Made by a program: the position numbers. This document shows positions 1-3,000 of a DNA stretch of 64,000 nucleotides, in pieces. Where the stretch lies: assembly GCF_050920415.1 (NCBI RefSeq), contig NZ_CP169309.1. One strand, written 5' to 3'. How positions within the stretch are numbered: the stretch's first letter is position 1; each line of letters starts with the position of its first letter. The stretch is from Escherichia coli (GTDB lineage: Bacteria; Pseudomonadota; Gammaproteobacteria; Enterobacterales; Enterobacteriaceae).

Positions 1-3000
1 ACTCACCCAGCAGATCCGCTTTTGCCCTGGCAAAAACGGCCTTCATATACTGGGCACACAGGCTGTTCAGTCCGCCCATTTTTACGCCTGGTACCTCTGC
101 CGCCAGCGTGTGGCCTTTCGCTTTCCATCTGACCTCCACGTTTTCCAGCTCCGCATTCACCTCCGCCACTGCCGCAAGTAGCGCCTGGCTGATGGTGTCA
201 GCGTCAATATCTGGCGGTAGTGACCGCTGCGCCTGAAAATCCTTCAGATTCAGGTCTGGCCAGAATCCGTTATTGGTCAGCGGTTCATCCTGATAATCCA
301 GCGGCTTTCCGCTAAACATAAATCCCCCGAAAAAGGCGGACTGGCCGGTTTCCACGGCGCAGTTACACACAATGTGTTCTGCCCTCCACCGCGTCCGCCT
401 GGCTTGCGGTAGTCGTTTACTGCTCAGTATTAAAAGTGTGCGTATGTACACCACTCAGAGAATGGCTATGTGCACCCACGGTATGGGTATGAGCGCCTTG
501 TAAATGGCTTTCTTTCATTTGTTGTTATCCTTGTGTTGTCAATTTTCGGATGCGAGCGGCAATCGTCTGCCGTGCCGTTCTGACGCCAATTTTTGAGTAG
601 TGCTTTTCTGCAATAGCCAGCAATTGATCGGCCTTTTCCAGCGTTTCAATATCATCCACGCCCGCCGCCGTTTTCTGGCCATCGTCATTGCGTAGTAACT
701 CCTGACCGGCAAACTTGAACCATTTGGCCGTCACTTGCTCATGCAGTCGCCAGGTGTTTGCCACCCGCTCAAACGTGCGGGTGAAATAAGGCTCCACACT
801 TTCCCCGCGCCCTGCGGTTTCCTGCGCCCATGCCAGCATCGTATCCGCCACGAAAGTGGGAAAATTGCTGCGTAACCGATCCGGGGTTGCCTGCTGCTGG
901 CTGATAGCAATGTCAGCCCAGTCCAGCGCCTTATCCAGATCGCCCACGTCAAACAGCCAGATAACACACCAGGCGAAAACCGGATTTGCATACACCTGGC
1001 CACTCTCCAGATAGGCTTCCACAGTGGGAACCCAGCGCGGCAACAGCACATCGCGTTTATACCCGGCGCGATCGGCGATGGTAGGCAGACTTCGAACATG
1101 TTCCACATCCGTTTCCAGCGCCCTGATCAGCAGGTGCATACTTTCCGTGGTTTCCAGTGCCTTGCTGCGTTTCAGCTTTTGTTCCATCGCAATGCGCTGG
1201 CTGTGACGCTGCGCGGGGGAAAGTGCCATTTATCAGCCCTCCACCGGTTCGGAGACTTTGCCGATCGTCACTGCGGATTCATCAATGGCCGCATACAGCT
1301 CCGGCACTTCCACCGCGTAACCTTCATTGCGCAGGTATTTGTTTTCGAACTGCTTACGATCTTCAACAAACTCCGCCTTACGCATACGGGTATTGCGCTG
1401 GGTGTAGATGTGCAGGTTAGAAAGCGGCGTAACCACCATGCGTTTACCCGGCATAAACGGCGGGATAATAGCCGGACGGCCAGCAATGGTACTTCCCAGC
1501 ATCTGCGCCGCGATTTTTTCAGTCGGACGGTCTGCTGCCTGATACAGTCGGTATTGTTCAGCAGCGACCAGATCGGCACCAACCAGGACAACCAGACGCG
1601 GGTCATTACGGAACTGTGCCGGGATTTTGGCGTTAATCAGATCGGACGCCATTGCATCCAGTGATTTGTAATCCCCGGCCTCATCAAGCACCACGGCATC
1701 CGTCATAATCTGATTGCCGCCCAGCAGCGTTTTCATACGCTCATGCCAGCCAACGTTCACATCCTCGCCGTTCGGGTTAGTTTCCGGATCAGTGGTTTTC
1801 GCGCGACTTTTACCGTTAAAACCAATGCGCAACATATCCAGTGCAAAAGCCTGCGTGGTGAATGCCTGCACCAGGTTGTAAAACTCGTTTTCGTCCTTAC
1901 CGGCGTTTGCCCAGACAGAAAGCAGATCCCAGCGCAACGCGGCACAACTGTCTGTTTCAACTAGGGAATAGTCATTACCATCAACGCCTACCTGACGAAT
2001 GAAACGGCCATTTTCGCTGCGGCCGGTATGCAGCACAGAGGAACCGACAGAGATCACCTGGCCACTCAGCTGGTCAACATCCAGACAGGTGATCATGTTC
2101 AGGAACTCGACGGACTCCAGCAGCGCAAGACGCAGCGCATTTTCCTGCGGGTCATTCAGGGAAAAATATCGACTGGTATCACGCGCACCAAACTGCTGCG
2201 CCATCCCCGCCGAATATTTATCCAGTAAATCCCGCGCACGATTATTAAGGTGCATAAAACTCCCTCGCAATTAAGCGATTTAAAAATATGTTCTGGACTA
2301 ATCAGCAATAAAGCGAATTACAGGAAATTAAATTTCCCAGCTTTATCTTTAATAGTACGCCCCGGTGTACGGGTGTTTTTATTACCCAGATCGTTAAAGC
2401 GGGTTACGATTTCTTTTGCATTATCGCGAATTGCCGCGAATTCCTGCGTATCCACCACTTCAGCGATTGTGTCAACATCCCCCTGAACGTCATTCAGTTG
2501 AGTTTCAATTTTCGCCACTCGCGCTTCCAGATCGTTCACCACATTGGCAAGCGCCTGTAATTTATCTTCATCCGGGGCAGGATTATCCTGCGGCGTTTCA
2601 TCTTCAAACTTTGGCTTAATACCAAACAGTTTCTGCCAGTTCTTCATTCTTGCTTCCTGTTTAATTTTTCCGTCACGGGAAATTACACAACTGTAATATC
2701 CCTGCTTTGTTAATTTATTGCGCCGACTACTAAAGCGCAGCCGTGTGGTGCCAACGCTGGCAGGTGTATCTGTTACCGCCAGCCCTTTCAGGTAAGTACG
2801 CCCGCTACCGCGCCAGTTTTCTTCCGGCTCAATGGAGAAGAACAAAAGCTGATCTTCATGATTTGCGAAAATCAGACGCATATTCGGGCAAAGGCTGACA
2901 TATAACCGTGCCAGTCCATCTTTACCATCATTCCAGGTGGCTTCCAGCACTTCACCAAAATTCCCGCAATCATCCTCATGTTCTGGCCAGATTAAAGCGA

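What the first reader, a model, noticed from the sequence alone, without database searches (positions are those of the whole stretch)
416..518. His/Thr-rich micro-ORF between gpM and gpL
Manual minus-strand translation between the M stop and the L start gives MKESHLQGAHTHTVGAHSHSLSGVHTHTFNTEQ (33 aa), with repeated H-T-H / H-S-H spacing that looks like a metal-binding peptide. It may simply be a non-coding spacer with chance composition.
Basis: seen in the sequence. Interest (0 to 1): 0.2.

Follow-up and report, generated by a model that had tools for sequence, protein, structure and literature searches.

The report
Stand-alone HxH-repeat phage mini-protein gene
The 33-codon reading frame between the prophage's small-terminase and head-completion genes is a real but rare, optional phage gene made almost entirely of the histidine "HxH" repeats that clamp iron ions inside phage tail fibres; its repeat number varies between strains and its role is unknown.

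Summary
Window 417-518 (minus strand) is an ATG-started 33-codon ORF, MKESHLQGAHTHTVGAHSHSLSGVHTHTFNTEQ. An AAGGA Shine-Dalgarno lies 9 nt upstream, and the ORF starts 6 nt after the gpM stop.

It is not a chance spacer:
- The same gene is intact in about 20 other loci: E. coli prophages, phage ESSI2_ev129 and metagenomes.
- Alleles are 32-82 aa and differ by in-frame gain or loss of 7/8/15-codon units. The window has the minimal allele of a 33/48/78 series.
- Codon patterns show this frame is the one under protein-level constraint.
- The peptide reaches the Pfam gathering score for the tail-fibre repeat PF03335. Its only PDB sequence match, a weak one, is the iron-binding needle of T4 gp37.

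A homologous 54-aa HxH mini-gene is inserted at a different point of the same M-L spacer in a distant P2-like phage. Most relatives have an empty spacer (71 of 80) or an unrelated small cargo gene (9 of 80).

Best reading: a mobile, late-operon accessory gene for a free-standing histidine-cage repeat protein, probably a metal-bridged trimeric rod. Its biological role is unknown, and it is not needed for the HxH-tipped tail fibre. Metal binding and trimerisation are inferred, not shown.

Next to it lies a covariation-supported structured RNA with a U-run that matches no Rfam family.

The parts
417..518 (-). HxH mini-protein gene: 33 codons plus stop (ATG 518-516, TAA 419-417). This is the minimal one-unit allele of a 33/48/78-aa series.
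   Evidence: sequence and translation. (intact alleles of 32-82 aa in other loci). (coding-frame tests). (Pfam PF03335, 20.4 bits against a cut-off of 20).
528..532 (-). Shine-Dalgarno AAGGA for the mini-gene, 9 nt before its ATG. It overlaps the last gpM codons; the gpM stop TAA is at 527-525.
   Evidence: The sequence ACAAGGATAACAACAAATG is identical in all E. coli-family loci.
477..497 (-). HxH unit 1, G-A-H-T-H-T-V (codons 8-14).
   Evidence: unit consensus [GS]-A-[HY]-[TSN]-H-[ST]-[VLAF].
456..476 (-). HxH unit 2, G-A-H-S-H-S-L (codons 15-21), followed by linker S22.
432..452 (-). HxH unit 3, G-V-H-T-H-T-F (codons 23-29), the conserved C-terminal unit before NTEQ.
   Evidence: The C-terminus AHTHTFNTE[QH] is conserved in all E. 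coli-family alleles.
525..1229 (-). gpM, the terminase small subunit and upstream neighbour. Its stop lies 6 nt before the mini-gene ATG and in the same frame (TAA CAA CAA ATG).
   Evidence: (PF05944 on the identical protein). (exact protein found in E. coli).
334..400 (-). Conserved structured RNA element in the M-L spacer: four stacked helices, 21 consensus pairs. The cargo genes are inserted just upstream of it.
   Evidence: 98.1% of cells paired against 31-47% when partners are slid; 8 pairs with double-sided compensatory changes; 52 double-change cells against 12.1 +/- 2.8 in shuffles. No Rfam match.
330..334 (-). U-run directly after the element, giving it the shape of an intrinsic terminator or attenuator.
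   Evidence: and the alignment.
1..319 (-). gpL (head completion protein, head-tail adaptor Ad1), 5' part. ATG at 319-317, SD GGGGGA at 328-323. The gene runs off the window.
   Evidence: (PF05926 Phage_GPL). (58% identical to L020 gpL).

Best explanation
Window 417-518 (minus strand) is a genuine, translated accessory gene of a P2-like (ESSI-2/Quadragintavirus-type) E. coli prophage. It has no promoter of its own. It sits in the late head operon and is probably translated by coupling to gpM through its own AAGGA ribosome-binding site. The product is a 33-aa protein with short conserved caps (MKESHLQG... and ...FNTEQ) around three copies of the tail-fibre HxH histidine-cage unit [GS]-A-H-[TS]-H-[TS]-[VLF]. 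By analogy with the T4 gp37 needle and the P2 gpV apex, three chains would come together so that each layer of three HxH motifs (six histidines) encloses one metal ion, classically Fe2+. The result would be a short metal-stapled trimeric rod with about 3 metal sites in this allele and up to about 10 in the 82-aa allele. Rod length changes quickly by in-frame slippage or unequal recombination of the 21/24/45-bp units. The gene is optional cargo of the gpM-gpL spacer and has moved between phage lineages. Shown here: it is a real, conserved ORF of the HxH-repeat type; its copy number varies; it is optional; and homologues were inserted twice in the same spacer. Inferred: translation, trimerisation and metal binding. 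Unknown: its biological role. My leading guess is a non-essential virion-associated or assembly-associated mini-fibre.
For: ORF, start codon and SD. The same gene is intact in about 20 other loci, with 12 protein alleles of 32, 33, 47, 48, 53, 61, 68, 73, 78 and 82 aa sharing conserved termini. PGAP annotates it as a CDS in all four complete E. coli genomes that carry it, and gene callers pick it up on metagenome and Logan contigs. Coding tests: in 61 units the second His is invariant, the first position is His 49 / Tyr 11 / Arg 1, and Ser at unit position 5 uses both codon families (TCT 20, AGT/AGC 18). Third-position entropy is 0.97 against 0.53 and 0.53, and the synonymous fraction is 0.378 against 0.037-0.224 in the other five frames. 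Unit pN/pS is 0.48, the lowest of six frames, and equal-length orthologue pairs give about 8 synonymous differences per 110 sites against 5 non-synonymous per 412 sites. Family assignment: Pfam PF03335 Phage_fiber scores 20.4 bits (cut-off 20) for the 33-aa form and 29.8 bits in 9 stretches for the 78-aa form. The only PDB sequence match is the T4 gp37 tip 2XGF, over its HxH region (E = 0.043). The phage's own fibre ends in the same GAHxHTV motif. Established knowledge: HxH is an intermolecular cage of three chains around Fe2+ in spikes, fibres and tailspikes (bioRxiv 10.1101/2023.02.25.529910). The gp37 needle holds seven coordinated irons and its iron-binding histidines are essential (PMC6957217). 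Recurrence: a 54-aa HxH-only protein (P0104) is encoded 3 nt upstream of gpL in a phage whose gpL is 58% identical, on the other side of the spacer's structured element. It is an insertion relative to Salmonella phage SI7. Its repeats are 81% identical in DNA to the E. coli ones (E = 1e-24). No sigma-70-like promoter was found on this strand in window 1-1500.
Against: There is no experimental evidence of translation, trimerisation or metal binding. The linked-trimer AlphaFold model was uninformative (pLDDT 31). The repeat period is 7-8 residues against 9 in the fibre and in gp37, so the geometry may differ. The protein has no recognisable domain to anchor it to a virion. The gene is rare: 0 of 80 gpL-anchored viral loci, 4 of 5,426 complete E. 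coli genomes, 1 of 50,697 phage records, and none in 100,044 species-representative genomes. It is dispensable for an HxH-tipped fibre, because ESSI2_ev015 lacks it yet has a 92% identical fibre. Because the repeat units are multiples of 3 nt, staying in frame is partly automatic. The family is young, with flanks more than 90% identical, so the evidence for purifying selection rests on small counts.
Confidence: 0.55

Rival explanations
1. Neutral or selfish repeat insertion. An HxH-coding minisatellite landed in the permissive M-L spacer and expands and contracts there. It may be translated because it sits in an operon, but it gives the phage no benefit.
For: The gene is rare and patchy and dispensable. 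Copy number changes between near-identical flanks. Units that are multiples of 3 nt preserve the frame automatically. The same slot tolerates an unrelated cargo gene or nothing.
Against: The second His is invariant in 61 of 61 units. Serine is kept across both codon families, and synonymous changes are in excess in this frame only. The start, SD, stop and both termini are conserved in every copy. A homologue is kept open in a second lineage, where gpL appears to be translationally coupled to it. No broken copy was seen among about 21 loci.
Confidence: 0.2
2. A soluble cytoplasmic metal-binding peptide rather than a cage-forming trimer. Examples would be a metal buffer or chaperone that supplies or sequesters Fe, Zn or Ni during late infection, or one that perturbs host metal homeostasis.
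For: The peptide is 21% His. It has no hydrophobic core or anchoring domain. It is co-expressed with structural genes that need Fe for fibre and spike cages. AlphaFold finds no fold.
Against: The units have the full fibre-repeat context (G-A before the HxH, V/L/F after it), not just histidine richness. A related phage builds an almost identical HxH fibre without this gene. No similarity to known metallochaperones was found in Pfam or NCBIfam.
Confidence: 0.15
3. A regulatory leader ORF. Translation of the His-rich frame, with stalling when His-tRNA is scarce, would control read-through of the downstream hairpin and U-run and hence expression of gpL and later genes, as in hisL-type attenuation.
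For: Seven His codons lie in 33, about 16 nt upstream of a conserved terminator-shaped element.
Against: The element is conserved with covariation in 71 of 80 relatives that have no ORF at all, and in 9 that have an unrelated ORF. In L020 the HxH gene lies downstream of the element. Folding ORF and element together shows no pairing between them, so there is no candidate anti-terminator. The His codons alternate rather than forming a run. A repeat number ranging from 3 to about 10 units does not fit a tuned leader.
Confidence: 0.05
4. A non-coding spacer whose open frame and His/Thr composition arose by chance.
For: The ORF is short. An open frame of this length appears in 16.5% of nucleotide shuffles.
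Against: At least three HxH occurred in only 9 of 200,000 shuffles, and the full motif in 0 of 200,000. The Pfam gathering score is reached. The ORF is conserved with coding-type substitutions in about 20 loci. The true non-coding spacer in relatives is the 93-102-nt structured element, to which this ORF is an addition.
Confidence: 0.02

Closest known systems
Needle domain of the T4 long-tail-fibre tip gp37 (PDB 2XGF)
   Same: Tandem G-x-H-x-H-x-[VI] units. It is the only solved structure with detectable sequence similarity. In gp37, three chains contribute HxH motifs to each of seven coordinated iron atoms, and the histidines are essential (PMC6957217).
   Different: gp37 is 1026 aa, with attachment and receptor-binding parts. 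[quoted passage not shown] The sequence match is marginal (E = 0.043).
HxH histidine cage of the P2 gpV spike Apex domain
   Same: An intermolecular cage made of three symmetry-related HxH motifs around one buried Fe2+. The authors note the same motif in fibres and tailspikes (10.1101/2023.02.25.529910). It occurs in the same broad phage group, the P2-like myoviruses.
   Different: The Apex has a single HxH at the end of a large beta-helical spike. Here there are 3 to about 10 tandem HxH units and no spike body. The ESSI2-type phage appears to have its own HxH near the C-terminus of its baseplate protein, so the mini-protein is not obviously a detached apex.
Pfam PF03335 Phage_fiber (phage tail fibre repeat)
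   Same: Both the 33-aa and the 78-aa proteins reach the curated gathering score, in 3 and 9 matched stretches.
   Different: The family is described from repeats inside long tail-fibre proteins. Among 170 significant hits in 1.84 billion representative proteins, almost all are long proteins, and only this family plus P0104 are short HxH-only proteins. The database labels 'tail fiber protein' and 'phage tail protein' on these mini-proteins are probably name transfer from the repeat rather than evidence of function.
Phage morons, i.e. optional cargo genes in conserved slots
   Same: Presence/absence polymorphism at a fixed junction between syntenic essential genes, with alternative unrelated cargos: HxH gene, L33-type gene, or empty.
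   Different: Classical morons carry their own promoter and terminator and are often expressed from the prophage. This gene has no detectable promoter of its own, sits 6 nt after the gpM stop, and would be expressed only with the late operon.
Histidine-rich metal-binding proteins and the hisL leader peptide
   Same: High histidine content. For hisL, also a short ORF upstream of a terminator-like hairpin.
   Different: No sequence relationship was found. The histidines are in a strict HxH register within fibre-type units, not in runs. The attenuator architecture is absent.

Membership tests
Pfam PF03335 Phage_fiber repeat | Sequence reaches the curated gathering score of the model | tested here: met
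   the 33-aa form scores 20.4 bits against a cut-off of 20 (borderline, 3 stretches). The 78-aa allele scores 29.8 bits (9 stretches, E = 4.4e-7).
Tail fibre protein (the functional class implied by the database names) | Long protein with a virion-attachment region plus a distal receptor-binding or tip domain | tested here: not met
   The protein is 32-82 aa and consists only of repeats with 8-aa and 5-aa caps. The phage's real fibre is a separate 524-aa protein.
Tail fibre protein (the functional class implied by the database names) | Encoded in the tail/baseplate module next to a fibre-assembly chaperone | tested here: not met
   It is encoded between the terminase small subunit and head-tail adaptor Ad1. 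The fibre and its assembly gene lie about 9 kb away in ESSI2_ev129.
HxH intermolecular histidine cage (gp37 needle, gpV apex) | Conserved H-x-H motif | tested here: met
   the second His is present in 61 of 61 units. The first position is His 49, Tyr 11, Arg 1.
HxH intermolecular histidine cage (gp37 needle, gpV apex) | Homotrimeric assembly placing three HxH motifs around one site | not testable with these tools
   A linked-trimer AlphaFold2 run without an alignment gave pLDDT 31 and pTM 0.14, which is uninformative.
HxH intermolecular histidine cage (gp37 needle, gpV apex) | Octahedral coordination of Fe2+ or another metal by six histidines | not testable with these tools
   This needs ICP-MS, spectroscopy or a structure. 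It is known for gp37 and gpV only from the literature.
HxH intermolecular histidine cage (gp37 needle, gpV apex) | Detectable sequence homology to a structurally characterised cage region | tested here: inconclusive
   2XGF matches at E = 0.043 with compositional bias. The alignment needs 1-2-residue gaps per unit.
Moron / accessory cargo gene | Present or absent at a fixed site between conserved genes in otherwise syntenic phages | tested here: met
   71 of 80 sampled junctions are empty, 9 of 80 carry an unrelated cargo, and ESSI-2, SI7 and many E. coli prophages are empty.
Moron / accessory cargo gene | Own promoter, allowing expression independent of the host operon | tested here: not met
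   no sigma-70-like site on the minus strand in window 1-1500. The ATG lies 6 nt after the gpM stop.
Amino-acid-sensing leader peptide (hisL-type attenuator) | Alternative anti-terminator pairing between the leader region and the terminator's 5' arm | tested here: not met
   no pairing between the ORF and the downstream region in the MFE or the centroid. The element is conserved without the ORF. In L020 the ORF lies downstream of the element.
Amino-acid-sensing leader peptide (hisL-type attenuator) | Run of consecutive regulatory codons | tested here: not met
   His codons alternate with Thr or Ser codons, and no two are adjacent.

The most novel reading that the evidence does not exclude
The HxH mini-protein would be a new class of phage small metalloprotein: a free-standing, metal-stapled trimeric nanorod whose length is set by rapidly slipping repeats. 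It would be carried on a mobile cassette that repeatedly targets the gpM-gpL spacer of P2-like head operons, and would be used as an optional virion part (a head or neck decoration or whisker) or as an in-trans partner of HxH-containing fibres and spikes. As the smallest natural histidine-cage protein, it would let the untested idea that HxH cages drive trimer registration and folding be tested directly.
Probability: 0.2. Interest if true: 0.6.

Novelty: new variant of a known kind. Interest (0 to 1): 0.35.

Why it matters
HxH histidine cages are a widespread feature of phage spikes and fibres, yet their proposed role in stabilising or registering the trimer has not been tested experimentally (10.1101/2023.02.25.529910). 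They have so far been described inside large, hard-to-fold proteins that may need chaperones. A natural 33-82-aa protein made only of these units, available as an allelic series of 3 to about 10 units, would be a simple system for testing metal-dependent trimerisation. For genome annotation, the result shows that a micro-ORF easily dismissed as spacer is a real gene. It also suggests that the labels 'tail fiber protein' and 'phage tail protein' on it are name transfers from a repeat. Finally, it shows that the gpM-gpL junction of P2-like phages is a cargo slot next to a conserved structured RNA that matches no Rfam family. If the gene proves neutral, the finding is only a curiosity of repeat evolution.

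Tried and rejected
With a 53-aa member it returned only two family members.
2. An N-terminal DNA pattern and a degenerate HxH-junction pattern found nothing in 100,044 species-representative genomes. In viral contigs they found only known members.
3. tblastn and the search for related loci with the divergent P0104 found no further relatives.
4. AlphaFold2 on a Gly/Ser-linked trimer of the 78-aa allele gave pLDDT 31, which is uninformative.
5. Rfam had nothing relevant in window 1-1500. The simple terminator scan missed the long element because its loop limit is 8 nt.
6. NCBIfam and PADLOC gave no matches for either cargo protein.
7. Literature searches by accession, sequence and phage name found no paper mentioning this protein.
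8. Antisense gene: the minus-strand CAT codons read as ATG on the plus strand, giving an open Met/Cys-rich frame (window 372..503, plus strand). I rejected it because only 3.7% of its differences are synonymous and one unit has a stop.
9. gpM read-through fusion: the ORF is in frame with gpM (TAA CAA CAA ATG). I consider this coincidental, because the other cargo gene is out of frame and the L020 gene is separated from gpM by the structured element.
10. Recent origin from the resident tail-fibre gene: rejected, as there is no significant DNA similarity.
11. Essential fibre chaperone: rejected, because ESSI2_ev015 lacks the gene and has a 92% identical HxH-tipped fibre.
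Full report
**1. The observation**

Window 417..518 on the minus strand is an ATG-started ORF of 33 codons plus TAA.

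The ORF lies between gpM (525..1229) and gpL (ATG at 319..317). The identical gpM protein carries Pfam Phage_term_smal and the downstream gene carries Phage_GPL. AAGGA at 528..532 sits 9 nt before the ATG, and the gpM stop is only 6 nt upstream.

The histidine pattern is not chance:
- At least three HxH motifs arose in 9 of 200,000 nucleotide shuffles.
- Three G[AV]H[TS]H[TS] units arose in 0 of 200,000 amino-acid shuffles.
- Only one other place in the six-frame translation of the whole window has three HxH within 33 residues.

**2. It is a gene**

Related sequences settle this.

*Copies and alleles*
- In Escherichia phage ESSI2_ev129 the same ORF is 78 aa, because a 45-bp (15-codon) unit encoding GAHTHTVGAHSHSLG is repeated in tandem about four times.
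- Four of 5,426 complete E. coli genomes carry alleles of 32, 53, 61 and 78 aa. PGAP annotates each as a CDS, named 'hypothetical protein' or 'phage tail protein'.
- IMG/VR contigs add 32, 53, 68 and 82 aa. Metagenome contigs add 48 and 73 aa. A protein database adds 47 aa.
- Contigs encoding the window's exact gpM carry the window's exact 33-aa allele, and a gene caller called it there.
- In all, about 20 further loci carry the gene in 12 protein alleles. Every copy is intact and has the same SD, ATG, N-terminus (MKESHLQG) and C-terminus (AHTHTFNTE[QH]).
- The 48-aa allele equals the window's allele plus exactly one 15-codon unit. The window therefore carries the minimal allele of a 33/48/78 series.

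*Codon-level evidence*

Because the units are multiples of three nucleotides, staying in frame is partly automatic, so I looked for evidence at the codon level.
- Across 61 heptad units from 10 distinct gene sequences, the second His is invariant (61/61). The first position is His 49, Tyr 11, Arg 1.
- Serine at unit position 5 is encoded by both unrelated codon families: TCT 20, AGT/AGC 18.
- Third-codon-position entropy is 0.97, against 0.53 at positions 1 and 2.
- The share of synonymous codon differences is 0.378 in this frame, against 0.037-0.224 in the other five.
- Nei-Gojobori pN/pS between units is 0.48, the lowest of six frames. The only close competitor (0.56) is the antisense frame that shares wobble positions with the sense frame.
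- Equal-length orthologue pairs give about 8 synonymous differences per 110 sites, against 5 non-synonymous per 412.
- The open antisense frame (window 372..503, plus strand) is a by-product of CAT reading as ATG on the other strand.

*Context*

The window is E. coli: its exact GlnH and gpM proteins are recorded from E. coli. It holds only the head and early part of the prophage; the tail genes lie off its left end.

**3. What the protein is**

- Pfam PF03335 (Phage_fiber, the tail-fibre repeat) reaches its gathering score. The 33-aa form scores 20.4 bits against a cut-off of 20, in 3 stretches. The 78-aa form scores 29.8 bits in 9 stretches.
- The only solved structure with any sequence similarity is 2XGF, the T4 gp37 long-tail-fibre tip. 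The match covers its HxH region and is marginal (E = 0.043).
- The real tail fibre of ESSI2_ev129 (524 aa) ends in a gp37-type tip with six HxH motifs...[37 protein letters not shown]...NIAFNYIVRLA. The mini-protein is essentially that motif alone, with a 7-8-residue period instead of 9.

From the literature, HxH is an intermolecular histidine cage. Three symmetry-related HxH motifs enclose one octahedrally coordinated Fe2+ in the P2 gpV apex. The same motif in fibres and tailspikes is thought to stabilise the trimer or keep the chains in register, an idea the authors say has not been tested (10.1101/2023.02.25.529910). The gp37 needle has seven such irons, and alanine substitution of the iron-binding histidines H929 and H931 abolished plaque formation (PMC6957217).

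By analogy, the mini-protein should form a metal-bridged homotrimeric rod with one metal per HxH layer. That step is inference. AlphaFold2 on a linked trimer without an alignment gave pLDDT 31 and says nothing either way.

**4. Distribution and mobility**

*Rarity*
- Anchoring on gpL, 80 IMG/VR junctions with 65-99% gpL identity comprise 71 empty spacers of about 93-101 nt, 9 with an unrelated 51-64-aa cargo, and none with an HxH gene. The unrelated cargo is labelled 'L33' in ESSI2_ev015 and belongs to PHROG 8618, of unknown function.
- Cronobacter phage ESSI-2, many E. coli prophages and P2 itself have no cargo.
- Only ESSI2_ev129 among 50,697 phage records carries the gene, and no species-representative genome does.

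*A second lineage*
- An exhaustive HMMER scan of 1.84 billion representative proteins gave 170 hits, almost all of them long proteins. The only short HxH-only proteins were this family and P0104, a 54-aa protein: MMNNKNNNVCTHNHAVGAHTHSLGGTHSHTPGVHTHSLGGTHTHTLGAHTHEQA.
- P0104 is also encoded in a gpM-gpL spacer, in a phage whose gpL is 58% identical. There it lies after the spacer's structured element, with its stop 3 nt before the gpL ATG.
- That phage's nearest isolated relative, Salmonella phage SI7, has an empty spacer, so the P0104 gene is an insertion.
- The repeat DNA of the two mini-genes is 81% identical over 120 ungapped nt (E = 1e-24), with the same alternation of 7 and 8 codons. 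Neither resembles the resident fibre gene's HxH-coding DNA: matches are 25 nt or shorter and E is 0.003 or worse.

One repeat cassette has therefore entered the same spacer twice, at different points and with different termini. It is not a recent local copy of the fibre gene.

**5. Function**

*What the data exclude*
- An essential role in fibre assembly. ESSI2_ev015 lacks the gene but has a 92% identical fibre with the same HxH motifs.
- A hisL-type attenuator. The downstream element is conserved without the ORF, L020 has the ORF downstream of it, no ORF-element pairing is predicted, and the His codons are never adjacent.
- A prophage-expressed moron with its own promoter.
- A known defence or NCBI-curated family.

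*What remains*

The gene is optional, and it is expressed late, if at all, with the head genes. In the E. coli lineage it lies upstream of a terminator-shaped element, so it would be made at the level of the capsid genes.

I rank the readings as follows:
- Free-standing HxH cage rod, with an accessory virion or assembly role: 0.55.
- Neutral or selfish repeat insertion: 0.2.
- Soluble metal-binding peptide: 0.15.
- Regulatory leader: 0.05.
- Chance spacer: 0.02.

**6. The neighbouring element (outside the finding's coordinates)**

The true M-L spacer is a conserved structured RNA at window 334..400, minus strand. It is followed by UUUUU (334..330), the gpL SD GGGGGA (328..323) and the gpL ATG.

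- On 33 distinct spacers, RNAalifold gives 21 pairs in four stacked helices, 8 of them with double-sided compensatory changes.
- 98.1% of cells are paired, against 31-47% when partners are slid. There are 52 double-change cells, against 12.1 +/- 2.8 in shuffles (0 of 500 shuffles reach the observed value).
- P2 has an analogous GC-rich hairpin plus CUUUUC.
- No Rfam family matches this region; the only hit in window 1-1500 at E up to 10 is a chance-level IMES-2 match at 702-746.
- In a single-sequence fold the MFE differs from the consensus, and stability is only modestly better than shuffled sequence (z = -1.85 for the element alone).

Its shape suggests a partial terminator or attenuator between the abundant head genes and gpL plus the genes after it. 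I did not test that.

**7. Comparison with known families, and novelty**

The protein works like the HxH cage repeats of fibres and spikes, and it passes the Pfam repeat model. It fails the features that define a tail fibre: size, domain architecture and gene neighbourhood. The database names 'tail fiber protein' and 'phage tail protein' should therefore not be read as function.

It is catalogued in public databases but uncharacterised, and I found no paper on it. I classify it as a new variant of a known kind.

Interest is modest (0.35). It is a clean case of a real micro-gene, and possibly a useful minimal model of histidine-cage folding. However, it is rare and dispensable, and no role has been demonstrated.

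Noticed in passing
window 330-400 (minus strand); alignment A2; P2 locus L013 ~905-990: The gpM-gpL spacer is a conserved structured RNA: four stacked helices with 21 consensus pairs, 8 of them with compensatory double changes. It is followed by a U-run and the gpL ribosome-binding site. No Rfam family matches it. It may be a partial terminator or attenuator that sets the ratio of head genes to downstream genes.
   Followed up: partly
L002 1599-1796 (ESSI2_ev015); L066, L067, L072, L080, L081, L092, L094, L099, L101: An unrelated 51-65-aa gene occupies the same M-L slot in 9 of 80 sampled relatives. It is labelled 'L33' in the record and belongs to PHROG 8618, of unknown function. It is not visibly similar to ribosomal protein L33 and has no Pfam match above the curated cut-off, nor any NCBIfam or PADLOC match. 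The junction is therefore a cargo slot with at least two alternative small genes.
   Followed up: partly
window 368-370 versus 317-319 (minus strand): The gpL start is annotated inconsistently across records. Some give 167 aa from a GTG that lies inside the structured element; others give 150 aa from the ATG that follows the GGGGGA Shine-Dalgarno. ESSI-2 has indels in this stretch, which may favour the ATG start, but I did not check their effect on the reading frame.
   Followed up: no
window 372-503 (plus strand): A 43-aa antisense ORF, Met/Cys/His-rich (...MAMCTHGMGM...), overlaps the mini-gene. It arises because CAT reads as ATG on the other strand. It stays open in most longer alleles, but only 3.7% of its differences are synonymous and one unit has a stop.
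   Followed up: yes
window 516-527 (minus strand): The mini-gene ATG is in frame with the gpM stop (GGA TAA CAA CAA ATG), so stop-codon read-through would fuse the HxH array to the small terminase. This is probably coincidental: the other cargo gene is out of frame, and L020's gene is separated from gpM by the structured element.
   Followed up: partly
L020 150-425: In the divergent phage the HxH gene replaces gpL's own Shine-Dalgarno region and ends 3 nt before the gpL ATG (GCG TAG CAA ATG). gpL translation there probably depends on coupling to the mini-gene.
   Followed up: no
L019 ~330-345 (ESSI2_ev129 gp01, 'baseplate protein', near its C-terminus): A single HxH (…CANHSHPTV…) lies about 35 residues from the C-terminus of the 567-aa baseplate protein. 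This may be an Apex-type histidine cage of the central spike.
   Followed up: no
window 1 to ~15,400: The window contains only the head, replication and probable integrase part of the P2-like prophage: L, the mini-gene, M, N and O on the minus strand, P and Q on the plus strand, and a probable integrase ORF at 14312-15352. Host genes (glnHPQ, moa, uvrB regions) follow. The tail and fibre genes lie beyond coordinate 1. Only gpM, gpL and GlnH were checked with tools; the other assignments are from ORF size and order.
   Followed up: partly
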